Shown here: one piece after another, positions 18,899 through 56,177 of the stretch
Layout: every line of letters begins with the position of its first letter
How positions within the stretch are numbered: position 1 is the stretch's first letter
IMG/VR virus record: IMGVR_UViG_3300028388_003025
Span: 15,121 to 79,120 of that record
Origin: a virus
Reading direction: 5' to 3' (one strand)
Length of the DNA: 64,000 nucleotides
Notes under the pieces: generated by a model
What the model was told of the DNA's origin: nothing
Database searches by the model: none
Seen by the model: only the letters and a program-made list of their open reading frames with translations
Made by a program: the position numbers and the translations under genes

Positions 18899-18925
18899 TC
18901 AACACATGACTATTTTATTCAACGC

Positions 18926-42836: not shown

Positions 42837-42840
42837 GCTC

Positions 42841-42849
42841 TGATATAAT
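42841..42849 (+). promoter_or_regulatory. Extended -10 promoter TGaTATAAT at the head of the poly-Ser/radical-SAM operon
   Basis: TGATATAAT 42841-42849; SD aaggag before ATG 42868. Confidence 0.6.
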
Positions 42850-42867
42850 TTAAGTAAGGAGAAAATT

Positions 42868-43071
42868 ATGACAAGAGAAGGTTTAAGAGAAGTACAAGTA
42901 GCATTCTATTGGGGCGCTAAAACTGCAGCAGAAATAACTACAATAGAAGGATCGGGTGATGCAGCTGCTGGAGACCTTGTTTACAATAGCGACGACTCTT
43001 CCCTTCTTGTTTTCAATAGTACGTCTGGAACATTTGTAGCTCCATATGCCGAATGGTTCCCTGGTTCATAG
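42868..43071 (+). CDS. Small hypothetical protein (fibre-like GDLVYNSD motif)
   Basis: SD aaggag; AAGDLVYNSDDSSLLVFN resembles short trimeric fibre segments. Confidence 0.65.
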   Translation: MTREGLREVQVAFYWGAKTAAEITTIEGSGDAAAGDLVYNSDDSSLLVFNSTSGTFVAPYAEWFPGS

Positions 43072-43090
43072 TAAAATCTTGGAGGATTAA

Positions 43091-43693
43091 ATGAGTAATT
43101 TTGATATAAAAGAGATACAAGACAAACTTGATCTAGACTTTAAAAGTTTTGATAAAGGCAATGCCCCACAAGATGTTTTGTTTAACTATAAAGGTGAAAG
43201 CACAGAGAATAAGATAGAACTTTTCAAGCTTCTATTAACTCATGGCGCTGTCTTAAACAGCTCAATGCTTTCAAATCTTTGGTTTTTAATTAGATCTGGA
43301 GCAGACTTGTCAGATGATTTCTTTAAGTTAGATGCCGTATGGTTCAATGATCTTGAAGAATTTCTTGATATAAAAATAGAATTGAAAAAAGAAATAGATA
43401 TATTCACAAGAGAACTTGTTAAGTATTACCTTGCAGTTATGGCCTCTGCTTCATATGAAATGGAAGGCTCTGACGAAGGAGCCGAAGGAATTCCTTATAC
43501 ATTCCAAAGAGTATTGCTAAGCACTGACTTATTTTCTTTATCAAATTTAGTATACAAGGTTGATTTAAATACAAAAGATTTACCAATAGTTTCAGGCTCT
43601 GTAAAAATATTGAGTGCACTTGTTGGTAAAGCTAAATTTATAATGAGCTTTGCTGAAGATGTATTAAACAAATCTGTAGAGGTAGATAGGTAA
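43091..43693 (+). CDS. Hypothetical helical protein, coupled to poly-Ser protein A
   Basis: SD ggagg; TAATG overlap with 43693. Confidence 0.75.
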   Translation: MSNFDIKEIQDKLDLDFKSFDKGNAPQDVLFNYKGESTENKIELFKLLLTHGAVLNSSMLSNLWFLIRSGADLSDDFFKLDAVWFNDLEEFLDIKIELKKEIDIFTRELVKYYLAVMASASYEMEGSDEGAEGIPYTFQRVLLSTDLFSLSNLVYKVDLNTKDLPIVSGSVKILSALVGKAKFIMSFAEDVLNKSVEVDR

Positions 43694-44286
43694 TGGCGCC
43701 AACTATATCATATCAAGCAGTAATAGATGCAGTCTTGGCAGACATAGAAGCTAAGTGTTCTAATGTTGGAACAGACACTGTTCCTGCAGCTGCTAAAAGC
43801 GCTGTATATTATTCTGAGTCCGGAACCTATGATCTTGGTGGAGCTTTTGAATTAGGCGCGGGGATCAATTCTGTCCCTACAATTTTAAACCTAGTTGCCG
43901 CAGCTACTGTTCAAACACAGCTTGATGCGTTTTTATTACTACATGGCATGGACAGTGCTAGTGGCAAGATGACATCCAAGTTCTTTTTTAGACTAATAAG
44001 TTTATTGGCATGCTTTTATTCTGCAAGAGTAGTACATGCAACATATGCTGCAGGTCAAAGTCTTGTTATATATAACTCAGGCGCTGTAACTTATAATACT
44101 CCAGTTGTCACTGATGATCAGAACCTTGTAACAATTACAGATATAAACGATTTAATAACAAACTTTAAAGATAATTATTCTAATGTTGACAACATTGCAA
44201 ACCTAGGCTATTACACTTCTGCTACTAGCAGCAGTTCTAGCAGTTCTTCGTCGAACTTTATTGCCTATTTTAATTTAAATGGATAA
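43693..44286 (+). CDS. Poly-serine protein A (candidate precursor/substrate)
   Basis: 9 consecutive Ser codons at 44227-44253, then NFIAYFNLNG*; paralogue of 44300..44995. Confidence 0.85.
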   Translation: MAPTISYQAVIDAVLADIEAKCSNVGTDTVPAAAKSAVYYSESGTYDLGGAFELGAGINSVPTILNLVAAATVQTQLDAFLLLHGMDSASGKMTSKFFFRLISLLACFYSARVVHATYAAGQSLVIYNSGAVTYNTPVVTDDQNLVTITDINDLITNFKDNYSNVDNIANLGYYTSATSSSSSSSSSNFIAYFNLNG

Positions 44287-44299
44287 GGAGTATATATAA

Positions 44300-44995
44300 A
44301 TGTTTCCAAACTTGAAGACCTACGGACAACTATATGACGAAGGATTGGCTTATGTAAAAAGCATCTGCAAAAATATAGACAGCTACGATGTGTCTGTTCC
44401 AGACTCCTTGAAACACGGAGCAATATTAACGAGAACTGCTCCACATAACTTGATTGACCCAGCCGTTGCAGCAACCCCAGCCCAGGTAGATTTAACACAG
44501 ACTGCTATTGCCGCAACATCAACAGCAACAGTAGACTCTCAATACCAGGCATACTTCAATGCAAATGGTTTTACTACTGCATCATCTACGTACGCAAACA
44601 CTAAAGCAATCGTTAATTACATTTCACTTCTTAGTGCGTTTATAACTGCAAGATGCGTCACTGTAAAGAATCCAGAAGCTCCAGCAGAAGCTGAGGTTAT
44701 GTATGACGATGGAGCTGTAACATATCCAACAACTGTAGAAAACAAATATAGTATTGATTACATACAAGAAGAAGATTTTGATGCTCTTTACTCTACGTTC
44801 TTTGACTCAATGTCCAGCACTTTGAAGGTTCAGTTCGTAAGCTCTGCAGCAGCACTTAGCTCATCTTCATCCAGTTCGTCATCATCTAGTTCGTCAAGCT
44901 CATCTAGCTCATCATCGTCTAGTTCTTCTAGCTCATCATCATCTAGCAGTAGCTCTAGCTGTTTGTTTGTAGCGTATTTCAACCTTAATGGATGA
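44300..44995 (+). CDS. Poly-serine protein B (candidate precursor/substrate)
   Basis: 34 consecutive Ser codons at 44858-44959, then CLFVAYFNLNG*; SD aaggag; ATGA overlap with the first radical SAM gene. Confidence 0.85.
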   Translation: MFPNLKTYGQLYDEGLAYVKSICKNIDSYDVSVPDSLKHGAILTRTAPHNLIDPAVAATPAQVDLTQTAIAATSTATVDSQYQAYFNANGFTTASSTYANTKAIVNYISLLSAFITARCVTVKNPEAPAEAEVMYDDGAVTYPTTVENKYSIDYIQEEDFDALYSTFFDSMSSTLKVQFVSSAAALSSSSSSSSSSSSSSSSSSSSSSSSSSSSSSSSSSCLFVAYFNLNG

Positions 44996-45909
44996 GCTCC
45001 TATTTAAAGATTTTACAGTTTCTCTTATGGGAGAACTGTAGTAACGGGTGCGAATTTTGTCTGTTTAAAGATGGCAATTTTTACAATGAAGAAGAAAAAA
45101 TATCCTCTATAGACAATGCTATTTCTATAATAAAGAAAAAAGAAACTATTGATAAGTATGACGGCGTCGGACTGATAGGCGGCGAGGTCCTTGAAAGACA
45201 AACTCCAGACGTTGAGTCTAAGTGGTTTGAATTAATAGACTATATAAATAGTAGCGAATATAAAACAGTGTGGCTAGCAACCAGCTTATTGTATAAAGAT
45301 AATTCTTTACTGCATGAAACAATAAACAGGCTTAAAGATGTACACATATATCTATGTACAAGCTTTGATGTTGAAGGTAGATTCAATGAGATTAAAAAAG
45401 AAAATTGGCATAAGAATATAGCATCAATTGATTACGATAATGTCACGATCCACACATCAATTATATTAAATGATTCACTTATTGATGCATTTAATAATCA
45501 TAAGCGCCTTTTAGATAACGTACCAAACTTTAGCTTTATTGCCCCGCAATTAAATGCTACAGAACATTGGGGAAAAGATCTTAAAGACTATAATAGCCTT
45601 TTGAGAGAGCTACATAACACATATCACCCCGGCTTCTTTATAAAGAACAGGTCAGTTTTGTTAAAATTTGTTAGAGAATTTTTTATGCATTATGGTAAGA
45701 ATATACTTAAACATTCAATTGAGATTAAAACGCATAGTTATGATACAATAATACCAAGCAGATTTTCTGAAGACTATTATAAAGACAAGTGGTTGTCTTC
45801 AAGCAAGTTTAACCTTGGCTGTGGCCACGAGAATTATTCTAAATTTTATTTAGACTCAGACAAATGTGTGTTTTGTGATATTGAGGAGGTTCTTAATTGC
45901 TTAGAGTAG
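44992..45909 (+). CDS. Radical SAM protein, CGH-x12-CxxC family paralogue 1
   Basis: LWENCSNGCEFC, LIGGE, TSFDVEGRF, CGHENYSKFYLDSDKCVFCD. Confidence 0.9.
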   Translation: MSSYLKILQFLLWENCSNGCEFCLFKDGNFYNEEEKISSIDNAISIIKKKETIDKYDGVGLIGGEVLERQTPDVESKWFELIDYINSSEYKTVWLATSLLYKDNSLLHETINRLKDVHIYLCTSFDVEGRFNEIKKENWHKNIASIDYDNVTIHTSIILNDSLIDAFNNHKRLLDNVPNFSFIAPQLNATEHWGKDLKDYNSLLRELHNTYHPGFFIKNRSVLLKFVREFFMHYGKNILKHSIEIKTHSYDTIIPSRFSEDYYKDKWLSSSKFNLGCGHENYSKFYLDSDKCVFCDIEEVLNCLE

Positions 45910-47474
45910 AATTAAATAAAGACGAAGAGTCTGTAATTAATTGCTACCAAATGTATCATGACGCTATAACAACAATACTAAGGCCAGACGGAGAAGTTAT
46001 ATCTATAGAAGAAGAGAGGCTTGTAAGAACTAGACATGCTTTAAGAGATGTGGCCAACCCTAACAAACCCTTTTTAGACTCTGAGATACTATGTAAAAGA
46101 GTCTTCCACAATGATAATGATGGCTATTTAAAAGAAGTATATGCTAACGAGTATGATCACCATATAGCTCATGCATATGGAGCATTAACACAAAGCGGTA
46201 TGTGGGATCAGGCTGCAATATTGGTTGTAGATGGTTGGGGTAAGGACATCAACACAGAAGAGTTTAATAGTATAGCAATATTCTCTGCAAATAATGGTGA
46301 GATAGAAACAAAAAGAGTCTATGATATAGCTTATTCTATAGGCGTCATGTATTCATACTCAAGCGAAATGGTATTCAAGCATGAGTTTACAGAAGGAAAG
46401 TTTATGGGACTGGCCACGCATGGCGATGCAAAGTCTGTGCCAAGGCTTTATACTATTGACGAAAGTACTGGAGATATATCTTATTACAGTGAGGCATACC
46501 CAATAAAAGAAGAACACAAAGTCCACAACAATGGCTGGAATACTCACTTATTGAACTGGATCTATAATGAGGTATATCCTCTTTGCAATAGCGATGCAGA
46601 TTTCGCAGCAACAATCCAAAAAGAATTTGAGCTAATTATGTTTGAACTTGTTAAGTATATTAAGAATACTGTAGGTGGTGACCGCTTAATAATAAGTGGA
46701 GGCTGTGGTCTTAACTGTACGTTTAATGGCAAGTTGCTGGCAGCTAATATATTTAAAGATGTCTACATCCCACCTATGTGTACAGATCAAGGAAGTTCTA
46801 TAGGTGTTTTATCTGCATATAAAAAGCAGAATATAAACAAGACACTTAAATATAATACTATAATCCATCCATTGCCGGATGATATTAAAGAAGTAGATAT
46901 GGAGTGGGTGGCTAACATGCTCAAGTCTGGCAAGATAGTTGCATGGTTTGAAGGTGGCTCTGAATATGGGCCAAGAGCATTATGCCATAGAAGCTTGCTT
47001 GCTGTCCCTAACAAGAAAGATGTAGCAGACAAGGTTAACAGAATAAAAAACAGGGAGTTGTGGAGGCCGTTAGCTCCCGTAGTTCTTGATACAGAGTTTG
47101 AAAAGATGTTTGATTGTAAGCCTGGCGTGCTACACGAATTCATGCTTTCAACAGAGACTGTCAGTGAAGATTATAGAGAAAAGGTGCCGGCAGTTCTTGC
47201 TAAAGACAATACTACAAGGCCACAAATACTCTTTAATGATTTAGACAATTCTGTATTGTATTCTATTATGAAGTCATTTGACTTGCCTGTGTTACTTAAC
47301 ACATCCTTTAATGACAGAGGAGAGGCAATATGTGAGTCTCCAGGGGATGCTATAAGGTTTGTAAACAAAAGAGATAAAGAAGATGTGGTGCTTATATTCT
47401 GTGACGGTAATAAGATTTATAACTATGCTAGAATGTCTAAACCACTATTCAATGGAGATACTGATGGCAAGTAG
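45897..47474 (+). CDS. Carbamoyltransferase (NodU/CmcH/TobZ family)
   Basis: EEERL, HHIAHA, VVDGWG, EGKFMGLA, GGCGLN, EYGPRALCHRSLLA, IKNRELWRPLAP, LLNTSFN. Confidence 0.95.
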   Translation: MLRVELNKDEESVINCYQMYHDAITTILRPDGEVISIEEERLVRTRHALRDVANPNKPFLDSEILCKRVFHNDNDGYLKEVYANEYDHHIAHAYGALTQSGMWDQAAILVVDGWGKDINTEEFNSIAIFSANNGEIETKRVYDIAYSIGVMYSYSSEMVFKHEFTEGKFMGLATHGDAKSVPRLYTIDESTGDISYYSEAYPIKEEHKVHNNGWNTHLLNWIYNEVYPLCNSDADFAATIQKEFELIMFELVKYIKNTVGGDRLIISGGCGLNCTFNGKLLAANIFKDVYIPPMCTDQGSSIGVLSAYKKQNINKTLKYNTIIHPLPDDIKEVDMEWVANMLKSGKIVAWFEGGSEYGPRALCHRSLLAVPNKKDVADKVNRIKNRELWRPLAPVVLDTEFEKMFDCKPGVLHEFMLSTETVSEDYREKVPAVLAKDNTTRPQILFNDLDNSVLYSIMKSFDLPVLLNTSFNDRGEAICESPGDAIRFVNKRDKEDVVLIFCDGNKIYNYARMSKPLFNGDTDGK

Positions 47475-48420
47475 CGAAGATAAAAGTTGTAGACCTTTAG
47501 GTATTCAAGTATGGAATGATTGCTCAAATAATTGTAGCTTCTGTGTACAGAAGCACTTTATAAAAGAAGTAACGCCACTTCACAAGAAGAAGCGATCAAT
47601 AGGCCTAGCAATGTCTCAGGTTCTAAACAACGATATAATAAAAGAATATCAAGGAGTCATGCTTATAGGTGGCGAGATATTTGGAGGCCAATTAAAAGGC
47701 CTTTATTCTGACTGGTTTGATCTGCTTGAGGCCTTCAATACTGCAGGATTAAAGCATGTAATACTACAAACAGGCCTCATGTATGAAGATGTTTCAGATC
47801 TTATCGAGTCCTTGGCCATAGTTAAAGATATAGAACAGGTAGTTATATCGACTTCATATGATACGCTAGGCAGATTCTCCAAGAAAACTAAAGACATTTG
47901 GGACAAGAATTTGTTGCTACTAGAGAAGCTAAAGAAGAAGTATAAGTTTCAGATCAATGTTTCTGTAATAATGACCCAAGCATTCATTGATGAGTATCTA
48001 GCTGGGAACTTTGTACACCCTAAAGGGGCTGACAGAGTTAGCTTATGCATCCCTCATATGTTTTCTGACCACCGTGATGCTCTTGATAATCCAGATCAAT
48101 ACTCGGACAAACTAAGAGATAGTGAATGTGAATACTCTGACAGGTTTTTGCCATTAAGGGATATTGATAAGCTTGCAGAGTTTGCTCACAAGTTCTCTGC
48201 CCAGTATGGATATGGAGGACTTGGCAGCTTTATAGAGTCAGCACAAGATATAATTCCATCATTTACACAAGACAATGATGTAGAACCTACCGACTTCATG
48301 CCTCGTAGTAGATGTGGGCACCTATTGATAGCACAATGTTATTCTGACAGCAACGAGTGCCTTGCTTGTGATCTTGAAAAACTAATACCAAATATAAAGG
48401 AGTTGGCAAAGAATGGATAA
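47464..48420 (+). CDS. Radical SAM protein, paralogue 2 (start probably ATG 47464)
   Basis: VWNDCSNNCSFC, LIGGE, TSYDTLGRF, CGHLLIAQCYSDSNECLACD; SD ggag before 47464. Confidence 0.9.
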   Translation: MASSEDKSCRPLGIQVWNDCSNNCSFCVQKHFIKEVTPLHKKKRSIGLAMSQVLNNDIIKEYQGVMLIGGEIFGGQLKGLYSDWFDLLEAFNTAGLKHVILQTGLMYEDVSDLIESLAIVKDIEQVVISTSYDTLGRFSKKTKDIWDKNLLLLEKLKKKYKFQINVSVIMTQAFIDEYLAGNFVHPKGADRVSLCIPHMFSDHRDALDNPDQYSDKLRDSECEYSDRFLPLRDIDKLAEFAHKFSAQYGYGGLGSFIESAQDIIPSFTQDNDVEPTDFMPRSRCGHLLIAQCYSDSNECLACDLEKLIPNIKELAKNG

Positions 48421-49216
48421 GTCTTATTGCGCACACCTAGATTCAAACTCTATGTTTGTTCGCTTCAAGGAGAATAGTTCTGACTTAATCTTTAGCTGTT
48501 GTAGTAACAGGGCTACAGATAACTTTGGCGATAAAGAATGTACTATCTCTTGTGATAACAGATCTGAAAATATAGATATGAAAAACGTATTAGGCATAGG
48601 TGCATACGGCAAATGTAATATACAGTGCAGGTATTGCAACTCTTCTCAGGTAGAGGTTAGTAGCGACTATTATGATATACTTGAAAAGAATATATTAGAG
48701 CGACTAGACCTTTCAAAAGTAGAGAAAATGTTCTGCGGTAGTGGAGAGCTTTTCTGTGACGAAGGTTTGCAGTCCTTATACAAGAAGATATTAGCAATAA
48801 ATCCAAACATTAAGGTTGTTATAGAAACAAATGGCATAGCATGGGACGAGAGTATTTTAGATAATATAGGTATGACAAGCTGTATTGATTCCATTCAGCT
48901 TCATTGTCCAGCATATGATGATGAATCATATAAAAAAATAACAGGGTTTAAAGGAGGTTATTCGCTATTTAAGGAAAAGGCAAAAGATATTTTTGATTTT
49001 TCTAATAGATATGGAATAGAAGACAGTGTAATAATTAATATACTGTTGACCCAGGATCTTAATGCTATAAAATATATTAAGACTATATTGGAAGACTTTA
49101 AAGATTTAAAAATTGGTGTAGCTTCTGTCTTTGGCTATGGTAGCCTAAGCAAGAGAGAACAACAAAGCTTGGCTGCAAGATTTGACGCACCTAATATTGA
49201 GTTTTTATTTTATTAA
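48413..49216 (+). CDS. Radical SAM protein with an N-terminal Cys-rich (SPASM/twitch-like) segment
   Basis: YCAHL...FSCCS...ECTISC before GKCNIQCRYC; GSGELF; ETNG. Confidence 0.8.
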   Translation: MDKSYCAHLDSNSMFVRFKENSSDLIFSCCSNRATDNFGDKECTISCDNRSENIDMKNVLGIGAYGKCNIQCRYCNSSQVEVSSDYYDILEKNILERLDLSKVEKMFCGSGELFCDEGLQSLYKKILAINPNIKVVIETNGIAWDESILDNIGMTSCIDSIQLHCPAYDDESYKKITGFKGGYSLFKEKAKDIFDFSNRYGIEDSVIINILLTQDLNAIKYIKTILEDFKDLKIGVASVFGYGSLSKREQQSLAARFDAPNIEFLFY

Positions 49217-49230
49217 TAGGAGGAAGAAAG

Positions 49231-49974
49231 ATGAATGATGCAGAATTATTAGATTTTTTTAAACAGAAATATGCAGGTCATGACTATAATGAGCAGGTGT
49301 TTACAGATAACATAAACCTATTCTCACTTGCTGACGATGAGATTGTTATAAACTTTTGTGGTTGTGAATACAGAGGATGCAACTTTTGTACACACTCTAA
49401 GGATAATGGGCTTAACTATATCCCTATCGAAAAGCTTAAACAAATAATACTAGGCTTGAACATACCTTCAATTGGCCTTTCTGGTAGTAACTTAAATAGT
49501 TATCCAGACCTGGTTGAGCTATATGATTGGCTTGAAGAGAACAATATTACAATCACAAAGATAAGAGGACTTACTCCTGCCGGGCAAGTTGCTAGAGATA
49601 TACTAGACAAGGCATCATTACTTGGTCCAGACGCAGTGGCTATAAGAATAATGGCGGGATCTGACAGAATGCTAGAGGCTATGGGTGCTAATTTTACAGT
49701 TCAAGATATTGAAACTGCTATATCCCTAGCATCAAGTGCGGGCAACAAGGTTTCATTACATGTATTATGTGGATATCCTGGTGATGCTCAAGATAATATT
49801 GATGGTATTAACTCTTTAATTCAATATAATAATTGTCAGGTATGTCTTTGCAGGTTTAACCCACCAGAATGGTTTGAAGGTTCAGCTATGGACGAGCAAG
49901 AAATGCTTGATCTGTATAAAGACTTTAAAGAAATAGATAATTTGTATGGAGAAAATACAAAGTATTGGGTGTGA
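49231..49974 (+). CDS. Radical SAM protein with a MiaB/class-B-like core and Cx4Cx2C motif
   Basis: GCEYRGCNFC, GLSGSNL, AGSDRMLEAMG, LCGYPGD; no obvious B12-binding or TRAM domain. Confidence 0.75.
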   Translation: MNDAELLDFFKQKYAGHDYNEQVFTDNINLFSLADDEIVINFCGCEYRGCNFCTHSKDNGLNYIPIEKLKQIILGLNIPSIGLSGSNLNSYPDLVELYDWLEENNITITKIRGLTPAGQVARDILDKASLLGPDAVAIRIMAGSDRMLEAMGANFTVQDIETAISLASSAGNKVSLHVLCGYPGDAQDNIDGINSLIQYNNCQVCLCRFNPPEWFEGSAMDEQEMLDLYKDFKEIDNLYGENTKYWV

Positions 49975-49978
49975 ATAC

Positions 49979-50905
49979 ATGAAGCTTCCTATAAAGAACT
50001 TTAAAGAGTTTATCCCCAAGCACGAAGAGTATATAAGAAGTAGTATTATATTCTTTCCAGACTGTGATTTTAATTGCAAGTTCTGCATATACAGAAATTG
50101 CCACGACATGACTACTATTGAAGATAGAGAGGTCATACTAAAGAAGGCTATAAAGCTTGTGTCTGATCCAAAGCTTAAGCCAACACCAATACTATCCTTG
50201 GTTGGTGGCGAATTCTTCGGAACCAAACTTAAAGGTCTTGAAGATTTGTGGCTAGAACTAATGACTGTTTGTTACAACTCTGGCTTTGAATTGATACAAG
50301 TACAGACCTCGTTGATGTTTAAAGAGATGCCATTGTTAGATAAGACAGCAGAAATACTCAAAGAAAAGTTGTCGGTCGCTACATCATATAATGAAGAGGG
50401 AAGATTTTCCAATACAAGGAAAAGCAATTGGAGAAAACATCTTGACCACTATAAATCTATAGGGGCTAACGTGTATATAATATATACTCTTAGCCAAAAC
50501 TTTATAGACAAATTATATAATCATGAAGTTTCTTTTGAGCCAGATACTGATAGGCTATTTAGATTGCCTACAATACCGTATGGTGAAGACTGTATTTATA
50601 ATAACTCTGATGAATATTATGAATATGTTAAAAGAAATATAGATAAATATCCTGAGAACTTTTTTATATCAGACAGGGAGAAGCTTATAAGCGTTATAAA
50701 AGAGTATGACGAGATGACTCCAAGAGCATTCTTTGCAAGCATATATTTTGAACGTTCATTTATATTGCACAAATATCCTGATATATATTACAATCATGTG
50801 TTTAATGAGTGTGGACACTCAATACTTGGTATGAACTATTTCAACGAAGAGCATGATTGTATATTATGCGACATTGAAGAAGCTTTTAAAGAGGAGGTTG
50901 AGTAA
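49979..50905 (+). CDS. Radical SAM protein, paralogue 3 (start 49979 or 49946)
   Basis: FFPDCDFNCKFC, LVGGE, TSYNEEGRF, CGHSILGMNYFNEEHDCILCD. Confidence 0.88.
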   Translation: MKLPIKNFKEFIPKHEEYIRSSIIFFPDCDFNCKFCIYRNCHDMTTIEDREVILKKAIKLVSDPKLKPTPILSLVGGEFFGTKLKGLEDLWLELMTVCYNSGFELIQVQTSLMFKEMPLLDKTAEILKEKLSVATSYNEEGRFSNTRKSNWRKHLDHYKSIGANVYIIYTLSQNFIDKLYNHEVSFEPDTDRLFRLPTIPYGEDCIYNNSDEYYEYVKRNIDKYPENFFISDREKLISVIKEYDEMTPRAFFASIYFERSFILHKYPDIYYNHVFNECGHSILGMNYFNEEHDCILCDIEEAFKEEVE

Positions 50906-51820
50906 ATGAGCATGATTCAGTACGGTCTATTCCCTAACTGTTCTAATAGATGTAAGTTTTGTCTTATAAAAGAAAGAGAATTCTTTTCTATGGATCAAGT
51001 AATTAGTGAGCTTGATAAAGTTATAAAGAATATTGATTATATTGATTGGGAAAATAAGTTTGACGCTGGAATATCTCTGCTCGGTGGAGAGATATATTAC
51101 ATAACAGATGAGAAATATAGACAAAAGTTTCTTGAACTTATAGATACTATAATAGAAAAGATATTAAAAGTATCTAAGAATCCTAATGTCAGATTTTCTA
51201 CTGTAACTAATGGGATATATAATCCAGAAAACCTTCTGTTTCCAGCAATAGACAAGATTGCTGATGCTGTCGGAATTAGCAAGGTAGATGTTAACTTTAG
51301 CTATGATCTTAAATACAGATATTCTAGTGAGGAAGATAGGCTACTTGTCCTAGAAAACATAAACAAGTTCCATGAAAGATACAACTATATTACAGGAGTT
51401 CAAATGGTATTGACGCAACACTTAATTGAAAAGGTTAAGGCTGGAGAGTTTGATGTAAATGATTTTGAGAAAGACGTTATCCCAGGAAATTGGCTTGCAT
51501 TGTTGTACCCGCACACAGTAAGGACTGGCGAAGCTCTTGGCGATTTTAATTTCAATAGAAAAGATTTCATTTGGTTTTATAATTATTTAAGAGAGGCGAA
51601 CCCAAGATTGTTCAGAGCCTTCACTAACTCAACAAAGAATAGTGGAAAGTTTAAACACACCGGCTTATTCTTCAAGGGAACGTCAGGAGGTTTTGATCAA
51701 CCGCCTGTCTTGTCTGACGGCAAAGAGTTGATAAACCCCAAGTGCGGCCACTCAATAATATACCAGTGTTACTCAGACTCTGACAAATGTGTCTTGTGTG
51801 ACATAGAATCGATCAGTTAA
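50906..51820 (+). CDS. Radical SAM protein, paralogue 4
   Basis: LFPNCSNRCKFC, LLGGE, FSYDLKYRY, CGHSIIYQCYSDSDKCVLCD; SD ggagg. Confidence 0.9.
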   Translation: MSMIQYGLFPNCSNRCKFCLIKEREFFSMDQVISELDKVIKNIDYIDWENKFDAGISLLGGEIYYITDEKYRQKFLELIDTIIEKILKVSKNPNVRFSTVTNGIYNPENLLFPAIDKIADAVGISKVDVNFSYDLKYRYSSEEDRLLVLENINKFHERYNYITGVQMVLTQHLIEKVKAGEFDVNDFEKDVIPGNWLALLYPHTVRTGEALGDFNFNRKDFIWFYNYLREANPRLFRAFTNSTKNSGKFKHTGLFFKGTSGGFDQPPVLSDGKELINPKCGHSIIYQCYSDSDKCVLCDIESIS

Positions 51821-51823
51821 TAT

Positions 51824-52648
51824 ATGAATTGCTTTAACATAAAGCTAGGCGATCAGCAACTAGAGAGCGGTCCAATAGCGATAATAAATATGATACTCGT
51901 TTGGATGAGGCTTGCTAGCGAATTCAAAGCAACCATTAGTGTTGATCTTAGCCAGTATGAAGCTTATTATAAATGCAGTATATTAGAAAGATATTTTCTT
52001 CCAATGCTAAATAGCGATATAGATACTGGAGTGGACTTTAGCTTAGTTCATTCAATATATCCTTTTGGCTTGCTTGACTCAATAAATGGAGACAAGGATT
52101 TCTTGCGATCTATTTCTGAAATACAGAAAAGAAATCTTGTCTTTAATAATACATGTATTAAAAGAATTGATTCTGACTTAATTCATTTTAACAAGCTCAA
52201 AAAAGAAGGGGCTTCTATTATGGGGGCTCTCGTTAGAGGTACTGACTACCTTAGTATAACTGGGAAGAATGTTCCAAAATGGCCAGACAATAAACGCATA
52301 ATAAAGTATTGTGAAAAGATAATGAATGACAATCAACATACACACTTGTTTCTTGCTACAGAAGATAGTGATGTATATGCAGCGTTTAAGGATAAGTTTG
52401 GAGAACTATTGATAGATATAGACCAGCCAAGGTTCTCTAGAAAAGACTTTGTATTGCCTGGGCAACTTAATAAAAAGCTTTATGATAACAATATGCTTAT
52501 GGCAGATAAGTACATTAGCTCTTTATATGCCCTTAGTGAATGCGACTCTTTTGTTGGCACGCCGACTAGCGGATCAATATTTGTTAGTATACTAAAACAA
52601 GACTTTAAATTCTTTAATATATTCTATAAGGGAGCTGGCAATGATTAG
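51824..52648 (+). CDS. Fucosyltransferase-like (NodZ/O-FucT-type GT-B) glycosyltransferase 1
   Basis: GALVRGTDY, LFLATED, LSECDSFVGTPTSGS match the three conserved fucosyltransferase-family motifs. Confidence 0.8.
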   Translation: MNCFNIKLGDQQLESGPIAIINMILVWMRLASEFKATISVDLSQYEAYYKCSILERYFLPMLNSDIDTGVDFSLVHSIYPFGLLDSINGDKDFLRSISEIQKRNLVFNNTCIKRIDSDLIHFNKLKKEGASIMGALVRGTDYLSITGKNVPKWPDNKRIIKYCEKIMNDNQHTHLFLATEDSDVYAAFKDKFGELLIDIDQPRFSRKDFVLPGQLNKKLYDNNMLMADKYISSLYALSECDSFVGTPTSGSIFVSILKQDFKFFNIFYKGAGND

Positions 52649-53507
52649 TAAATATACTAGAGTTTGTTATAACAATGGCGCACAAGGCATAGGCGGCTTA
52701 TTTCTGATAGGCCTAAAAGGAATCTACAGCAATGTAGACTCGTCCACGCCAGTCATAGATATGTCAGAATCTGCATATTATTGTGAGCAATTTGATAATC
52801 CAAATATCTGGGAGAACTATTTTAAACAGGTTGATATAAGCTTAAATGAACTCAAAGAACTTGCTCAAGATAATGTAACTGTAGTTAATGAATCTTTTTC
52901 TGAGCCCTATATAAAAAGGTTTACATCTAAAGCGTATGATTATTTAAAAGACACTTATGAAAAATATGTTAGCTTTACTGATGATATAGAGAAAGAGTTT
53001 TCCGAAAGCTTACAAGCTATCGCTGGAAAGAAATGCCTGGCAGTGTGTGGCAGAGGTACGGATTATTTATATGCAAATCCTGAAAGACACGCAATAATGC
53101 CAGAACCATACTTCTTACTCGAAGAGGCTGAAAGATTTGTTAATGAGCATGGATATACTCATGTGTTCTTAACAACAGAAGATCAGCATATATTTGATAT
53201 GTTTAAGTCAAAGTTTAATGAGAAATTAATAGCAGTTGATATGCATCGTGTTACAAGACTAGAGGTTCTCAAGGCAGGAACGATATGCAATATACCTATG
53301 GATATGGTAGCCTTTACTAAAGCGTATCTTAAGTCTATATTCTTAATGTCTAGATGTGATGGCTTTATTGGCGGAAGCAATGGCTCAGCCTTAGCTTCTA
53401 TAGTAATGAGAGGCAACAAAGAATTTGGCGACTTGAATATATACTATCTTGGCAATATAAGAAACTATAGAAAGTACAATATATATACTGGAGAGGGTGA
53501 TAACTAA
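52641..53507 (+). CDS. Fucosyltransferase-like glycosyltransferase 2
   Basis: GIGGLF, NIWENYFKQ, AVCGRGTDY, VFLTTED, MSRCDGFIGGSNGS. Confidence 0.82.
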   Translation: MISKYTRVCYNNGAQGIGGLFLIGLKGIYSNVDSSTPVIDMSESAYYCEQFDNPNIWENYFKQVDISLNELKELAQDNVTVVNESFSEPYIKRFTSKAYDYLKDTYEKYVSFTDDIEKEFSESLQAIAGKKCLAVCGRGTDYLYANPERHAIMPEPYFLLEEAERFVNEHGYTHVFLTTEDQHIFDMFKSKFNEKLIAVDMHRVTRLEVLKAGTICNIPMDMVAFTKAYLKSIFLMSRCDGFIGGSNGSALASIVMRGNKEFGDLNIYYLGNIRNYRKYNIYTGEGDN

Positions 53508-54568
53508 TGAGATATGCAGATCCTGATAAAATAAAATCATATCAAACAGAGTTATGGCAAGAGTGTAACAACCTTTGTGCCTATTGTTATCTTGGGCAAG
53601 AGAATAGAAAAACTCCAGATTCTGTAAAAGAAGAGTCACTAAGAATATTTCTTAAGAAGTTAGACAGCTTTGATTTCGAAAACTACAACAACATATCATT
53701 TATTGGCGGGGAGTTCTTTCAAGGACAATTATCTACACCAGAAATAAAAAGGTTATTCATGGAGATAATGAACAAAGTTCATTGCTTTATGAAAGAGGGC
53801 AAGTTAAGATCTGTATGGATAACAGCAACTCTAACCATAGGTGATCAGCCAGAACTTTACGAGGTTATAGAGATGTTTAAAGATATTGAAATTGATCCAG
53901 AAGATAGACAGAAAGGCTTGTGGATATGTACAAGCTATGATGTTATTGGCAGATTTCATTCAGATAAAATGCTAGAGACCTGGCAAACACATATGCTTAA
54001 AATGCATAATGACTATCCTTTTGTTAAGCTAAACACTACCATTATAGTTATGGGCAAGTTGTGCGATATGTATCTAGACAACAAGTTCTCATTTAGAGAG
54101 TTTATCGACAAATACAATACAGCTATATTCTTAAAGCAACCAGGATCTGGCACCCTTAATGACGAGAGGGAGAGGGATGTATCTAATCCTAAAGACCTAG
54201 AGCGACTTAAGAAAGTGATAATGGAAGAGCGAGTCCCAGGGATGTTCCCTAAGAGGAAGCTGTTCTTAAAGTTCTTAACTAAGTTTGCAAAAGAAGAGCC
54301 TGAGTTGTACGATAGATTATACAACATAGAATACAGAGCTGACGTGTTAGTCAGAAACTTTAATAGCATTGACCGTCTTGATAAATCTTTTGAGAGAGAT
54401 AAACATGCTGTAATAGAAGACCAGGCATCTACCTGTATTAATGACTGTGGGCATATAATAGAATATGCTGCATATATTGATTGTGATAACTGTGCCATAT
54501 GTGATAGGAACGAAGTCTGGGAGGCGGTTCATGGCGCACATCACAAACTATTTGGAATAAAGGAGTAG
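53507..54568 (+). CDS. Radical SAM protein, paralogue 5
   Basis: LWQECNNLCAYC, FIGGE, TSYDVIGRF, CGHIIEYAAYIDCDNCAICD. Confidence 0.9.
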   Translation: MRYADPDKIKSYQTELWQECNNLCAYCYLGQENRKTPDSVKEESLRIFLKKLDSFDFENYNNISFIGGEFFQGQLSTPEIKRLFMEIMNKVHCFMKEGKLRSVWITATLTIGDQPELYEVIEMFKDIEIDPEDRQKGLWICTSYDVIGRFHSDKMLETWQTHMLKMHNDYPFVKLNTTIIVMGKLCDMYLDNKFSFREFIDKYNTAIFLKQPGSGTLNDERERDVSNPKDLERLKKVIMEERVPGMFPKRKLFLKFLTKFAKEEPELYDRLYNIEYRADVLVRNFNSIDRLDKSFERDKHAVIEDQASTCINDCGHIIEYAAYIDCDNCAICDRNEVWEAVHGAHHKLFGIKE

Positions 54569-54577
54569 GAGGACATC

Positions 54578-55474
54578 ATGAGTAATAGCTACGAACATCC
54601 AATGTACGAGTTCCTTGTGTGGAATGATTGTGGAAACAATTGTAGATTCTGCTGGCAAAAGCATTTTAATGACAAGACAAAGATGCTTGAGTCAGAAGCA
54701 GACAAAACAAAATCTTTACAAGAAGTTTTTAGAATGATTAATGATCCTGAGTTCTTTGAGGCAGGTTCTGACATATTACTTTGCGGTGGTGAGATATTTG
54801 ATAATCTAAATTACAATCTAGACCTTGCCTTGCAGGATATTATAAGACTTATAGTTGATAAGATTAAGAAGAAGGAGATTAGATATTTCTATATGAATAC
54901 TAATTTGATATACAAAGACCTGACAGACTTGTCAGTTGTATTGCAATATCTTGCTACAAATGATGTACTTGGCAACTTTATATTCACAACATCATATGAT
55001 ATTTATGGCAGGTATAAGGATAAAGAAGCTGAGACATTGTTCCTAAGGAACCTTAAAGTAATCAAGGCAAGCTTTCCTAACATAAACATAGCTGTAAACA
55101 TGATAATGACTAAGCAATTATGTAGCGAAATACTAGATAATGGCTTTTCTATAAAAGAATTCTCTGACTTCTATCAAGTAAAGGTGAACACCATCCCGTA
55201 CATAACCCTACATGAAGATATGCAGCCTACAAAGAACGAGGTATTTAAGGCTCTCTTAAAGATAGACAAAGAACTTCCTGGTTATTTTAAGCACTATACA
55301 GAAAACTTTGATTTAGATCAGAAGAAAATACTGCTTGAGTATATAAAAGATATTGGATACCAGGAGTGTACATCGGAATACGATGATTGTGGCCACAACA
55401 CTAACTTTAAGAAGGCATTTTCTGATGGTTCTTGCTATATCTGTAACTGTAAAAATTTACTTGAATCTATGTAA
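54578..55474 (+). CDS. Radical SAM protein, paralogue 6
   Basis: VWNDCGNNCRFC, LCGGE, TSYDIYGRY, CGHNTNFKKAFSDGSCYICN; SD aggagg. Confidence 0.9.
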   Translation: MSNSYEHPMYEFLVWNDCGNNCRFCWQKHFNDKTKMLESEADKTKSLQEVFRMINDPEFFEAGSDILLCGGEIFDNLNYNLDLALQDIIRLIVDKIKKKEIRYFYMNTNLIYKDLTDLSVVLQYLATNDVLGNFIFTTSYDIYGRYKDKEAETLFLRNLKVIKASFPNINIAVNMIMTKQLCSEILDNGFSIKEFSDFYQVKVNTIPYITLHEDMQPTKNEVFKALLKIDKELPGYFKHYTENFDLDQKKILLEYIKDIGYQECTSEYDDCGHNTNFKKAFSDGSCYICNCKNLLESM

Positions 55475-55478
55475 AACG

Positions 55479-55487
55479 TGATATAAT
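55479..55487 (+). promoter_or_regulatory. Extended -10 promoter TGaTATAAT, leaderless start of 55494
   Basis: TG 55479-55480, TATAAT 55482-55487, ATG 55494. Confidence 0.6.
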
Positions 55488-55493
55488 TATCAC

Positions 55494-55940
55494 ATGCGCG
55501 TTACTATTTACGGCGATGGGGTAATAGAGTTTCGGCTCAACAAAGACATATACTTCCTGGAAAAGGTCATAAAAGCTAGGCTTAAAACTGGCGACTACAT
55601 AATAGAAGATATAATCAGCCCTGTAAGGCTAGAGTCTGCTGCTAGTAACCAGAAAGAACTATGCACCATGCACGACTTTGGGTGGAGCGCTATATGTAAA
55701 CATGACTATGTAATGGACTTAGCTCCTATACATCTAAGCCCAGCAGGATCAAAGAAGAAGACAGACCACAAGGTATTGATAAATTTCAGAGATAAAGATT
55801 CCAATATAAGAATATATAATCTGATCAGAGATGAAATGGAGAAGGCTGGATACTTGCGCATAACCATTACTGATGACAGGCACGGCCCATCTGTTGCTGA
55901 CAAGCTATTATCTTGCTTTAAAAAAGACAATGAAGCTTGA
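55494..55940 (+). CDS. Hypothetical protein
   Basis: 148-aa ORF after a promoter. Confidence 0.7.
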   Translation: MRVTIYGDGVIEFRLNKDIYFLEKVIKARLKTGDYIIEDIISPVRLESAASNQKELCTMHDFGWSAICKHDYVMDLAPIHLSPAGSKKKTDHKVLINFRDKDSNIRIYNLIRDEMEKAGYLRITITDDRHGPSVADKLLSCFKKDNEA

Positions 55941-56136: not shown

Positions 56137-56177
56137 CTGTGCTATAATTTTATTATCAAAAATTTGGAGGAATTATT

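What the first reader, a model, noticed from the sequence alone, without database searches (positions are those of the whole stretch)
42841..55474. Candidate undescribed phage protein-hypermodification (RiPP-like) system: poly-Ser proteins + 8 radical SAM enzymes + carbamoyltransferase + 2 glycosyltransferases in one operon
Seen: 15 tightly coupled genes lie between a promoter at 42841 and the next clear promoter at 55479, inserted between the tail-fibre and lysis genes. Two paralogous ~200-230-aa proteins ending in (Ser)n-(x)x-F(I/V)AYFNLNG are followed directly (ATGA overlap) by eight radical SAM genes, a NodU/CmcH carbamoyltransferase and two fucosyltransferase-like GTs. Established: this precursor-then-tailoring-enzyme layout is how RiPP clusters are built. 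Radical SAM enzymes epimerise, crosslink or oxidise Ser/Cys (e.g. proteusin epimerases, anaerobic sulfatase maturases). NodU/CmcH enzymes carbamoylate hydroxyls, and O-fucosyltransferases act on Ser/Thr. Inference: the Ser tracts are the substrate for iterative radical chemistry, glycosylation and carbamoylation. The product could be a decorated virion appendage (receptor binding or shielding) or a released bioactive peptide. No dedicated transporter or peptidase is visible in the operon, which favours a virion-bound product.
Basis: partly seen in the sequence, partly recalled or inferred. Interest (0 to 1): 0.95.

Follow-up and report, generated by a model that had tools for sequence, protein, structure and literature searches.

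The report
Phage serine-tailed proteins with radical-SAM array
An uncultured gut or rumen phage carries a 15-gene operon in which two proteins ending in a run of serines sit beside eight radical-SAM enzymes, a carbamoyl-transferase and two sugar-transferase-like proteins; the core of this set recurs in dozens of related phages and matches no described system, so it is probably an unknown way of chemically rebuilding a phage protein's tail.

Summary
Window 42868-55474 has 15 co-oriented, tightly packed genes:
- a 67-aa ORF and a 200-aa "helper";
- two paralogous proteins, each with a folded N-domain, a poly-Ser tract (9 and 34 Ser + 1 Cys, scrambled codons) and an F(I/V)AYFNLNG end;
- six paralogous radical-SAM (rSAM) enzymes of a phage-restricted family (Cx3Cx2C, GGE, C-terminal CGH...Cx2C) and two ordinary rSAMs;
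- a TobZ/NodU-type O-carbamoyltransferase and two paralogous proteins with fucosyltransferase-like look-alikes.

I examined 38 other contigs fetched through two rSAM subfamilies. Of these, 32 carry helper plus a Ser/Cys-tailed protein in the same cluster and one has tailed-protein homologues elsewhere in its bin. Three are cut at a contig end, one has a lone rSAM, and one is a sister array beside Cys-tailed proteins with tail-fibre-type heads.

Tracts in 76 distinct tailed proteins are 86% Ser and 14% Cys, with almost nothing else. Three are Cys-free, so thioether crosslinking cannot be the shared chemistry.

The N-domain fold, helper and rSAM family have no solved or named relative. Carbamoyl- and sugar-handling genes are lineage-specific add-ons. 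The chemistry and a virion location remain inferred.

This scan has already noted the same module on other DNA (at least 21 genomes). I found no publication on it.

The parts
42820..42849 (+). Promoter-like site (TTGAAA-18-TATAAT with TG extension; holds TGATATAAT at 42841-42849)
   Evidence: Best sigma-70-like match in 42000-56500, 11 of 12. The motif count in the window is not above chance.
42868..43071 (+). 67-aa ORF, first gene of the operon. Not seen in other modules; weakly like a tail-fibre Mtd_N head.
   Evidence: No Pfam or PHROG hit. Only the window has it. Pairwise E 0.019 to an Mtd_N protein of L069, in register.
43091..43693 (+). Helper protein (200 aa), a conserved core member of unknown fold and role
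   Evidence: Homologues stand beside the tailed protein in the related loci that carry one. No Pfam, PHROG or PDB-sequence hit.
43693..44286 (+). Ser-tailed protein 1 (197 aa): N-domain, 9-Ser tract (44227-44253, no Cys), cap NFIAYFNLNG
   Evidence: It has the shortest and one of three Cys-free tracts among 76 family members.
44300..44995 (+). Ser-tailed protein 2 (231 aa): N-domain, 34 Ser + 1 Cys (44858-44962), cap LFVAYFNLNG
   Evidence: AF2 model pLDDT 78.3, pTM 0.68, with no fold match.
44992..45909 (+). CGH-type radical SAM A, a lineage-specific long-branch paralogue
   Evidence: Cx3Cx2C, GGE, CGH..Cx2C. Tree. Four further relatives among the top 150 family representatives.
45897..47474 (+). 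O-carbamoyltransferase (NodU/CmcH/TobZ type), accessory
   Evidence: Pfam Carbam_trans_N and _C above cut-off. phrog_1601 3.6e-84. TobZ 1.4e-46.
47383..48420 (+). CGH-type radical SAM B, lineage-specific. The true start is probably downstream of 47383, because the ORF overlaps the previous gene by 92 nt.
   Evidence: It is its own only match among the top 150 representatives.
48413..49216 (+). Ordinary radical SAM (no CGH end), accessory
   Evidence: Pfam Radical_SAM 52.3 bits. Only weak named hits: QueE-like 3e-7 and PDB 6y1x 1.5e-3.
49231..49974 (+). Ordinary radical SAM with Cx4Cx2C, accessory
   Evidence: Pfam Radical_SAM 42.3 bits. Sequence read. Weak B12-rSAM/MiaB-like hits over the C-terminal half.
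49946..50905 (+). CGH-type radical SAM C, lineage-specific and very divergent
   Evidence: (end branch 2.72).
50906..51820 (+). CGH-type radical SAM D, an orthologue of conserved subfamily D
   Evidence: 45-62% identical orthologues in 13 IMG/VR loci and 9 MAG loci. Clade support 100.
51824..52648 (+). Fucosyltransferase-like protein 1 (putative glycosyltransferase), accessory
   Evidence: Paralogue of the next gene, 31% identity, E 4e-21. No Pfam or NCBIfam hit.
52641..53507 (+). Fucosyltransferase-like protein 2 (putative glycosyltransferase), accessory
   Evidence: Some atlas neighbour clusters hold NodZ/FUT8/O-FucT in 10-19% of members, with TM 0.69-0.75 for those rows. This is a lead only.
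53507..54568 (+). CGH-type radical SAM E, an orthologue of conserved subfamily E
   Evidence: Tree. 33-47% identical orthologues on most of 30 IMG/VR loci. E is the most diverse subfamily, with 78 of the top 150 representatives.
54578..55474 (+). CGH-type radical SAM F, an orthologue of conserved subfamily F (one per locus in the loci of the tree)
   Evidence: Clade support 100.
55479..55487 (+). Second TGATATAAT (extended -10-like) motif, just after the operon's last stop codon
   Evidence: The count is not statistically above chance.

Best explanation
This is one member of an undescribed, phage-restricted protein-modification module.

SUBSTRATES (inferred). The two paralogous Ser-tailed proteins each have a folded ~175-aa N-domain of unmatched fold, a nearly pure Ser (elsewhere Ser/Cys) tract, and a near-invariant hydrophobic end, F-[IV]-[AG]-Y-x-x-[LI].

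RADICAL STEP (inferred). The six CGH-type radical-SAM enzymes each reductively cleave SAM and abstract hydrogen atoms along the tract. The conserved end and/or the helper protein would serve as the docking element. Three of the six are orthologues of the conserved subfamilies D, E and F, and three are specific to this phage.

CONSTRAINTS ON THE CHEMISTRY.
- Ser and Cys are interchangeable in the tract, while Thr, Gly and Ala are excluded. The chemistry therefore needs an unsubstituted CH2-OH or CH2-SH side chain.
- Some tracts have no Cys, so the chemistry cannot depend on sulfur.
- The most economical candidates are C-beta oxidation to formylglycine (as anaerobic sulfatase maturases do on either Ser or Cys) and C-alpha epimerisation.

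ADDED STEPS IN THIS PHAGE (inferred). The pathway is extended by a TobZ/NodU-type O-carbamoyltransferase, two fucosyltransferase-like proteins and two ordinary rSAMs. These probably add and tailor sugars and carbamoyl groups on the same tail.

FATE OF THE PRODUCT (inferred). It probably stays attached to the folded protein and works with the tail or tail-fibre apparatus of phages that live in anoxic guts.

SHOWN VERSUS INFERRED. Shown: the gene content, the family relationships and the conserved co-occurrence. Inferred: that the tract is the substrate, the type of chemistry, and the virion location.
For: CO-OCCURRENCE.
- Through subfamily D: all 13 IMG/VR loci, on 12 contigs, have helper + tailed protein + 4-8 family rSAMs.
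- 9 MAG contigs: 6 have the tailed protein in range. One has helper + two tailed-protein homologues 5 kb beyond the fetched edge of the same contig. One has homologues on other contigs of its bin. One is cut.
- Through subfamily E: 17 new contigs, of which 13 have the module, 2 are cut, 1 has a lone rSAM and 1 is a sister array.

SELECTION ON THE TAIL.
- Codons in the tracts are scrambled.
- In 76 distinct tails, length is 9-37 (median 23.5) and composition is 85.8% Ser, 13.8% Cys, 0.2% Asn, 0.2% Thr.
- The end is FIAY, FIGY or FVAY in 59 of 76.
- Five near-identical phage contigs keep an identical tail.

DEDICATED ENZYMES.
- An rSAM profile finds 941 representatives among 1.84 billion proteins. 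The top 150 all fall into the subfamilies seen in these modules.
- Atlas neighbours are 86-100% viral.
- Subfamilies D and F are separate, well-supported clades (support 100) and E is a clade with support 92. Each recurs across the loci in the tree, which argues for non-redundant roles.

SISTER ARRAY. It is homologous (hhalign 99.1%, E 4.5e-19). It sits beside two small proteins with Cys-rich C-tails and Pfam Mtd_N tail-fibre heads (46.8 and 29.2 bits against a 26.3 cut-off).

ACCESSORY ENZYMES. Carbamoyltransferase. In larger modules the rSAMs are interleaved with DegT aminotransferases, GT2 transferases and GDP-mannose 4,6-dehydratase.

HABITAT. Titles of the MAG contigs name rumen and gut samples, which fits oxygen-sensitive enzymes.
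Against: - There is no biochemical evidence of any kind. Adjacency does not prove an enzyme-substrate relation.
- The six CGH-type rSAMs score below Pfam's Radical_SAM cut-off. They have no significant solved relative by sequence (best E 0.073), so nothing about their reaction can be transferred by homology.
- One contig has a family rSAM with no tailed protein within 10 kb upstream or 7 kb downstream (L061).
- Why 3-10 diverged paralogues would be needed for a homopolymer is unexplained.
- The virion location rests on neighbourhood only. The upstream 'tail fibre' has no family hit, and in at least one locus the upstream neighbour is a helicase.
- The N-domain has no structural match that would mark it as a virion protein.
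Confidence: 0.55

Rival explanations
1. Glycan-centred reading. The Ser/Cys tract is mainly an O-/S-glycosylation acceptor that forms a mucin-like brush on a phage protein. The rSAMs tailor the attached sugars by dehydrogenation, deoxygenation or epimerisation, as BtrN or DesII do on small-molecule sugars, rather than acting on the amino acids. Carbamoylation then falls on a sugar hydroxyl, as in TobZ or NodU.
For: - The nearest solved relatives of the carbamoyltransferase (TobZ, the novobiocin enzyme, GdmN) all act on small-molecule hydroxyls, sugar hydroxyls in the first two.
- The window has two fucosyltransferase-like proteins.
- In L017 and L029 the family rSAMs are interleaved with DegT sugar aminotransferases, GT2 transferases and GDP-mannose 4,6-dehydratase.
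- From my own knowledge: GT2 enzymes of glycocin pathways glycosylate both Ser and Cys, which would also explain why the two residues are interchangeable.
Against: - Most modules have the full rSAM set, helper and tailed protein but no homologue of the glycosyltransferases or sugar-nucleotide genes used as queries within +/-10 kb. Other glycosyltransferase families were not searched for.
- The conserved core is rSAM + helper + tail. The sugar genes vary by lineage.
Confidence: 0.2
2. The tailed proteins are not the substrate. The rSAM array modifies something else (phage DNA bases, a nucleotide, a lipid or a small molecule). The tailed protein and helper are then structural or scaffolding partners, with the poly-Ser tract acting as a flexible linker and the hydrophobic end as an anchor.
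For: - Phage rSAMs are known in DNA hypermodification (M6 gp53; PMC8989533).
- A lone family rSAM exists without a tailed protein nearby (L061).
- Some family members are fused to MiaB-like or AAA ATPase modules.
Against: - No thymidylate-synthase-like gene or aGPT-Pplase3 is present in the 79-kb record. The record is only 72% complete, and the aGPT control rang in no control genome.
- A linker would tolerate Thr, Gly, Ala, Asn or Pro, but the tract is 99.6% Ser + Cys.
- Co-occurrence with the tail is close to obligatory.
Confidence: 0.12
3. True RiPP. The modified tail is cleaved off and released as a bioactive peptide, for example against competing bacteria or for host takeover. The N-domain would act as a very long leader.
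For: The gene order is precursor followed by tailoring enzymes, and the modified region is C-terminal as in RiPP cores. Long, folded leaders are known in proteusins (my own knowledge).
Against: - No peptidase, exporter or RRE is present in this operon. I did not look for them in the related modules.
- The N-domain is conserved, confidently modelled and exists as tail-less paralogues next to tailed ones. That fits a working protein, not a disposable leader.
- The operon stands between baseplate-region and lysis genes.
Confidence: 0.08

Closest known systems
CrpA/CrpC of Methanococcus voltae (rSAM-SPASM enzyme installing ranthionine thioethers on a Cys-rich protein; PMC13692751)
   Same: An rSAM enzyme modifies a genetically adjacent, full-size protein with a low-complexity Cys-rich region rather than a short peptide.
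   Different: - CrpC is a single enzyme with a full SPASM domain (three [4Fe-4S] clusters) and a predicted RRE.
- Here there are 6 paralogues with only a CGH...Cx2C end, no detected SPASM or RRE, and a separate helper.
- The tract is Ser-dominated, and three family members have no Cys at all, so thioethers cannot be the common product.
- The host here is a phage.
Sactipeptide/ranthipeptide maturases (SkfB, CteB, PapB) with Cys-rich precursor peptides
   Same: The layout is an rSAM next to a Cys/Ser-rich C-terminal core. There are weak N-terminal similarities: NCBIfam PapB E 0.001-0.011 and SkfB E 0.26 in the PDB search. Some structural neighbours of the rSAM carry SPASM.
   Different: None of those scores is significant. 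There is no SPASM motif, leader peptide, protease or exporter. The substrate is a homopolymer on a folded protein.
Anaerobic sulfatase-maturing enzymes (AtsB, anSME), which oxidise Ser or Cys to formylglycine (own knowledge)
   Same: This is the only well-known rSAM chemistry that accepts Ser and Cys interchangeably on a protein. That matches the composition rule of the tract.
   Different: anSMEs have a SPASM domain with two auxiliary clusters and act on one residue in a C/S-x-P-x-R motif. Neither feature is present here.
rSAM peptide epimerases (PoyD of proteusins; YydG/EpeE with YydF), named closest by earlier agents of this scan
   Same: They perform iterative radical chemistry along a ribosomal chain. 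Proteusins also have long, folded leaders (own knowledge).
   Different: I could not confirm any closeness. A profile search of PDB sequences does not list YydG at E <= 1, and I folded no rSAM model.
Mycobacteriophage virion glycosylation (Freeman et al. 2023, Cell Host Microbe 31:1216; the reference is seen in PMC11256854, but the paper is not held, so its content is from my own knowledge)
   Same: Phage-encoded glycosyltransferases decorate extensions of virion proteins.
   Different: That system has no rSAM enzymes, no homopolymeric tract, no conserved hydrophobic end and no carbamoylation.
TobZ / NodU / CmcH O-carbamoyltransferases
   Same: Gene 45897-47474 is a member. Both Pfam domains are above cut-off and TobZ scores 1.4e-46.
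   Different: The solved and named relatives listed act on small molecules. A protein-bound Ser or glycan acceptor would be new.

Membership tests
Radical SAM superfamily | Cx3Cx2C cluster-binding triad near the N-terminus | tested here: met
   Invariant in all six CGH-type paralogues and present in 48413-49216. Gene 49231-49974 has Cx4Cx2C instead (sequence).
Radical SAM superfamily | SAM-binding GGE motif | tested here: met
   G60 G61 E62 are invariant in alignment A1.
Radical SAM superfamily | Pfam PF04055 score above the gathering cut-off (29.5 bits) | tested here: inconclusive
   Met for the two ordinary rSAMs (52.3 and 42.3 bits). The six CGH-type proteins score 16.8-29.3 bits, all below the cut-off.
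SPASM/Twitch rSAM maturases | C-terminal Cys-rich auxiliary-cluster motif (Cx2Cx5Cx3C plus flanking Cys) or a PF13186 hit | tested here: not met
   Only C-G-H-x12-C-x2-C is invariant, giving 3 Cys + 1 His. No SPASM Pfam hit. Structural neighbours at TM 0.74-0.75 do carry SPASM. The homologous sister array L069 has Cx2Cx5Cx3C. The CGH end may therefore be a reduced relative.
RiPP biosynthetic cluster | Short precursor with leader and core, an RRE or other leader-binding domain, and a leader peptidase and/or exporter | tested here: not met
   The precursor is 197-231 aa with a confidently modelled domain and has tail-less paralogues. No RRE, peptidase or transporter family is found in the 15 genes.
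Anaerobic sulfatase-maturing enzyme system | Target motif C/S-x-P-x-R in the substrate and a SPASM domain in the enzyme | tested here: not met
   Neither is present. The resemblance is only in accepting both Ser and Cys.
YydG/EpeE epipeptide epimerases | Detectable sequence or fold relationship to YydG | tested here: inconclusive
   Not listed at E <= 1 in the profile search of PDB sequences. No rSAM model was folded, so folds were not compared.
NodU/CmcH/TobZ O-carbamoyltransferases | Carbam_trans_N (Kae1-like) plus Carbam_trans_C (YrdC-like) domains | tested here: met
   92.7 and 149.8 bits against cut-offs of 24 and 27. phrog_1601 3.6e-84. TobZ 1.4e-46.
GT23/GT65-type fucosyltransferases (NodZ, FUT8, O-FucT) | Family HMM hit or clear fold match | tested here: inconclusive
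   No Pfam or NCBIfam hit. Some atlas neighbour clusters carry NodZ/FUT8/O-FucT in only 10-19% of members, TM 0.69-0.75 for those rows.
Phage thymidine hypermodification pathway (PMC8989533) | dUMP hydroxymethylase (thymidylate-synthase-like) and aGPT-Pplase in the genome | tested here: not met
   No PF00303 and no PF18746 match in the 79-kb record. Caveats: the record is 72% complete, and the PF18746 control rang in no control genome.
Undescribed phage Ser/Cys-tail + CGH-rSAM module (seen by this scan on other DNA) | Helper + tailed protein with an F-I-[AG]-Y-type end + rSAM subfamilies D, E and F in one cluster | tested here: met
Undescribed phage Ser/Cys-tail + CGH-rSAM module (seen by this scan on other DNA) | Fourth conserved rSAM subfamily lacking the CGH end, and the recurrent ~330-aa protein (alignment A7) | tested here: not met
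   Neither is in the window or elsewhere in the 79-kb record. The window instead has three lineage-specific CGH paralogues.

The most novel reading that the evidence does not exclude
An array of dedicated, phage-only radical-SAM enzymes converts a ribosomally made Ser (or Ser/Cys) homopolymer into a chemically new polymer. Candidates are poly-formylglycine, alternating D/L-serine, or an ether/thioether ladder. In this phage the polymer would then be glycosylated and O-carbamoylated. The result would be a non-proteinaceous appendage on a tail-associated protein, used by anaerobic gut phages for host recognition or shielding. This would be a new class of post-translational polymer chemistry and the first radical-SAM-built virion component.
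Probability: 0.3. Interest if true: 0.92.

Novelty: new variant of a known kind. Interest (0 to 1): 0.8.

Why it matters
If the tract is the substrate, this is an unexplored enzyme family: about 940 representatives at 50% clustering, with atlas neighbours almost all viral. It would perform iterative radical chemistry on a homopolymeric protein tail, a substrate type with no precedent among RiPPs or protein modifications. It would add a new post-translational chemistry and a new class of phage-encoded virion or host-interaction modification in gut and rumen ecosystems. It would also supply compact rSAM enzymes (about 300 aa) with a simple genetically encoded substrate for enzymology.

This window is a useful member for three reasons. 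Its tails are almost Cys-free, which excludes sulfur-dependent chemistry. It sits in a smaller genome, roughly 110 kb by extrapolation from a 79-kb record estimated 72% complete. It couples the core to carbamoylation and putative glycosylation, which give predictable mass shifts.

Tried and rejected
SEARCHES THAT FOUND NOTHING
- GenBank phage collection: no match for the operon DNA, for Ser-tailed protein 1 or for rSAM D.
- Ser-tailed protein 1 alone in the 5.8-billion-protein index found only itself. A profile was needed.
- First AF2 model from 5 sequences was too poor (pLDDT 56.8). The second, from 39 sequences, was usable.
- PDB-sequence profile searches: rSAM family best E 0.073; helper no hit; recurrent 330-aa protein no hit.
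- Literature searches for radical SAM with polyserine, jumbo phage or phage-encoded RiPP found no description of this module.
- No thymidylate-synthase-like or aGPT-Pplase3 gene in the own record.

JOBS WITHOUT A USABLE ANSWER
- Complex prediction of helper with Ser-tailed protein 2: no verdict, score 0.01. This is not evidence either way.
- The look-up of sequencing runs: none was listed and no RNA holder was listed.
Ser-tailed protein 2 as a single query found no relative.
- Reverse test by a DNA pattern for the FIGYMKL end. The first pattern was too degenerate. The second omitted the residue before F and found nothing. The third found only two contigs already known to carry the module.

IDEAS CONSIDERED AND REJECTED
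- The poly-Ser tract is a slipped trinucleotide repeat or a phase-variable tract. Rejected because the codons are mixed and the tail is identical across five near-identical contigs.
- Thioether (sactionine/ranthionine/lanthionine) crosslinking is the shared chemistry. Rejected because three tracts have no Cys.

Full report
WHAT IS IN THE SEQUENCE

The window is bases 15121-79120 of a 79,120-base IMG/VR virus record estimated 72% complete.

Between 42868 and 55474 lie 15 + strand ORFs with gaps of at most 19 nt or overlaps. In order they are:
- a 67-aa ORF;
- a 200-aa protein that I call the helper;
- two paralogous proteins of 197 and 231 aa (28% identity, E 9e-7), ending in S9-N-FIAYFNLNG and S34-C-L-FVAYFNLNG;
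- 11 enzyme genes.

The second tailed gene overlaps the first rSAM gene by ATGA. The Ser tracts use 4 and 6 different Ser codons. They are therefore selected as protein and are not slipped repeats.

TGATATAAT stands at 42841 and at 55479. The first lies in the best sigma-70-like site of the region. Four copies per window is not above chance, so the promoter claim is plausible but not demonstrated.

Upstream is a baseplate wedge gene (phrog_6, 3.6e-58), followed by a 1264-aa ORF with no family hit. Downstream is an M15-type endolysin.

THE ENZYMES

Six proteins (44992, 47383, 49946, 50906, 53507, 54578) are paralogues at 19-28% identity. They share an invariant Cx3Cx2C, GGE, a Ser and an Arg in a TSYD..GRF-like motif, and a C-terminal C-G-H-x12-C-x2-C. 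Their Pfam Radical_SAM scores are all below the cut-off. NCBIfam gives only weak, scattered hits. A profile search of all PDB sequences gives nothing better than E 0.073.

Two further genes are ordinary rSAMs above the Pfam cut-off: 48413-49216, and 49231-49974, which has Cx4Cx2C.

Gene 45897-47474 is a clear NodU/CmcH/TobZ-type O-carbamoyltransferase.

Genes 51824-52648 and 52641-53507 are paralogues of each other (E 4e-21) and have no family hit. Some protein-atlas neighbour clusters of the second carry NodZ/FUT8/O-FucT domains in 10-19% of members, at TM 0.69-0.75 for those rows. 'Fucosyltransferase-like' is therefore a reasonable lead and not a finding.

No peptidase or transporter family is present.

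IS THE LINK BETWEEN TAIL AND rSAMs REAL?

I fetched loci through two different rSAM subfamilies.

Subfamily D, IMG/VR: 13 loci on 12 contigs. All have a helper homologue, one or two tailed proteins and 4-8 family rSAMs.

Subfamily D, species-representative genomes: 9 contigs in rumen or gut MAG bins. The bins have mutually inconsistent taxonomy, and four of the contigs are 245-283 kb, so at least those are probably mis-binned phage.
- 6 have the tailed protein in range.
- L029 has helper plus two tailed-protein homologues, at least one of which carries the Ser/Cys tail, 5 kb beyond the fetched edge on the same contig.
- L031's bin has homologues on other small contigs.
- L025 is cut at the contig end.

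Subfamily E, IMG/VR: 17 further contigs.
- 13 have tail plus helper.
- 2 are cut at the contig end.
- L061 has a lone rSAM and no tail within 10 kb upstream or 7 kb downstream.
- L069 is a distant sister array.

So the link is close to obligatory. There is one possible exception, on a 26-kb fragment.

Several contigs are near-identical to one another, so the number of independent lineages is nearer 20 than 38. I did not count lineages formally.

THE TAIL FAMILY

A profile of five tailed proteins finds 24 or more further members in the 5.8-billion-protein index.

Over 76 distinct tailed proteins:
- tract length is 9-37, median 23.5;
- composition is 85.8% Ser, 13.8% Cys, 0.2% Asn, 0.2% Thr;
- the following four residues are FIAY (37), FIGY (16), FVAY (6) or close variants.

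The pattern used to collect these tails tolerated only Ser and Cys plus isolated Asn, Thr or Ala, so the composition figures are partly built into the selection.

The window holds the shortest tract and one of the longest. Its tracts are nearly Cys-free, and three family members have no Cys at all.

Thr, Gly and Ala are excluded while Ser and Cys interchange. This points to chemistry that needs an unsubstituted CH2-XH side chain but not sulfur. Thioether crosslinks are thus ruled out as the common product. Epimerisation and formylglycine-type oxidation remain the simplest candidates. This step is inference.

The N-domain models well with 39 sequences (pLDDT 78.3, pTM 0.68; an alpha/beta arrangement). 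It matches nothing in the PDB or in viral predicted structures.

Tail-less paralogues of the N-domain often sit directly after a tailed one. This argues that the domain is a working protein, perhaps a hetero-oligomer, and not a disposable leader.

THE rSAM FAMILY

The six-paralogue profile finds 941 representatives at E <= 1e-3, of which 267 are at E <= 1e-30, among 1.84 billion cluster representatives. The top 150 all fall into the subfamilies seen in these modules: E 78, F 31, no-CGH 19, D 8, a fifth group 7, and the window's A 5, B 1 and C 1.

A quick maximum-likelihood tree separates conserved subfamilies D and F (support 100), no-CGH (95) and E (92).

The window has one member each of D, E and F. 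It has no member of the no-CGH subfamily. It also has three long-branch paralogues of its own. The tree was the quick version because the careful search did not finish, and the placement of the three long branches is unreliable.

Some family members are fused to an AAA ATPase, to an ordinary rSAM, or to a MiaB-like UPF0004 + rSAM module.

Atlas neighbours of rSAM D are 86-100% viral. At TM 0.74-0.75 they include phage clusters that carry SPASM.

A SISTER ARRAY

Locus L069 holds about ten rSAM paralogues that are homologous to subfamily E over the core (hhalign 99.1%, E 4.5e-19, 217 columns). They end in Cx2Cx5Cx3C, the SPASM-type motif.

On the opposite strand next to them are two small proteins. 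Their N-termini are Pfam Mtd_N, a tail-fibre head domain (46.8 and 29.2 bits against a 26.3 cut-off). Their C-termini are Cys-rich.

This is a single locus, but it supports two readings. The CGH end may be a reduced SPASM relative. Arrays of this enzyme lineage go together with low-complexity C-tails on tail-fibre-type proteins.

ACCESSORY GENES

The carbamoyltransferase recurs in L017, L026, L029, L051 and L059. The fucosyltransferase-like pair and the two ordinary rSAMs are unique to the window.

In L017 and L029 the family rSAMs are interleaved with DegT sugar aminotransferases, GT2 transferases and a GDP-mannose 4,6-dehydratase.

Many other modules instead carry a ~330-aa protein with no Pfam or PDB hit. 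The window lacks it.

Glycan-type tailoring is thus a recurrent but optional extension of a core that consists of helper, tail and rSAMs. This is why I rank the glycan-centred reading as a rival rather than as the main explanation.

COMPARISON WITH THE KNOWN

The nearest concept is CrpA/CrpC, in which an rSAM acts on an adjacent Cys-rich protein (PMC13692751). Other comparisons are the sactipeptide and ranthipeptide maturases, anSME, and the proteusin and epipeptide epimerases.

Every membership test that I could run for these families failed or was inconclusive. There is no SPASM motif, RRE, leader, peptidase or exporter, no C/S-x-P-x-R target, and no significant similarity to any solved rSAM.

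Earlier agents of this scan named YydG/EpeE as closest. I could not confirm that, and I folded no rSAM model.

The DNA-hypermodification rival (PMC8989533) finds no support in the record. The record is incomplete, however.

I found no paper describing the module.

STATUS WITHIN THE SCAN

Earlier notes record the same module on other DNA in at least 21 genomes. They also record the codon scrambling on this window.

My independent tests agree with them on recurrence, on the helper, and on the four conserved rSAM subfamilies.

New here:
- the Cys-free tails and what they exclude;
- the composition statistics;
- the three lineage-specific paralogues;
- the absence of the no-CGH subfamily and of the 330-aa protein;
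- the occurrence in a phage that is probably well under 200 kb;
- the Mtd_N-headed sister array.

VERDICT

This is an undescribed variant of rSAM-based protein maturation. There is a fair chance that the chemistry is entirely new.

Noticed in passing
L069 (IMGVR_UViG_3300045988_176429) 935-18906: Sister array of about ten rSAM paralogues that end in Cx2Cx5Cx3C. They are homologous to subfamily E (hhalign 99.1%). Beside them are two small proteins (1426-1779 and 935-1420, - strand) with Pfam Mtd_N tail-fibre heads and Cys-rich C-tails.
   Followed up: partly
L012 6572-7168; L016 6544-7266; L021 5894-6595; L023 9421-9975; L024 5104-5676 and others: Tail-less paralogues of the Ser-tail protein's N-domain sit directly after a tailed copy in many modules. 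This suggests a tailed/untailed pair. In the window both copies are tailed.
   Followed up: partly
L009 8081-9088; L012 8994-9983; L026 7919-9992 and others (alignment A7): A recurrent ~330-aa protein lies inside many modules, sometimes duplicated. It has no Pfam or PDB-sequence hit and is absent from the window.
   Followed up: partly
window 42868-43071: The 67-aa first gene of the operon aligns weakly (pairwise E 0.019), but in register, with the Mtd_N head of an L069 protein. It may be a minimal tail-fibre-head-like protein. It is not found in the other modules.
   Followed up: partly
L061 (IMGVR_UViG_3300031998_000642) 9995-10939: A lone subfamily-E rSAM with an intact CGH...Cx2C end, and no tailed protein or helper within 10 kb upstream or 7 kb downstream. 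The contig is a 26-kb fragment. This is the only candidate exception to the co-occurrence.
   Followed up: partly
P0009, P0036, P0079; L017 19491-20936; L030 9750-11972 and 14990-17074: Some family rSAMs are fused to other modules: an AAA ATPase, an ordinary rSAM, or a MiaB-like UPF0004 + rSAM module. L030 has 694- and 740-aa fused forms.
   Followed up: partly
L023-L031 (MAG contigs): Contigs carrying the module, four of them 245-283 kb, are binned into MAGs labelled Succinivibrionaceae, Muribaculaceae, Bacilli, Melainabacteria, Erysipelotrichaceae and Oribacterium. The taxonomy is inconsistent, so these are probably mis-binned phage genomes and say nothing about the host.
   Followed up: no
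window 19794-29090: A single 3098-aa ORF stands upstream of the baseplate region. It was not examined.
   Followed up: no
window 58714-59109: A 131-aa ORF downstream of the lysis genes has a sub-threshold CBM_5_12 carbohydrate-binding hit (22.3 bits against a 26.2 cut-off).
   Followed up: no
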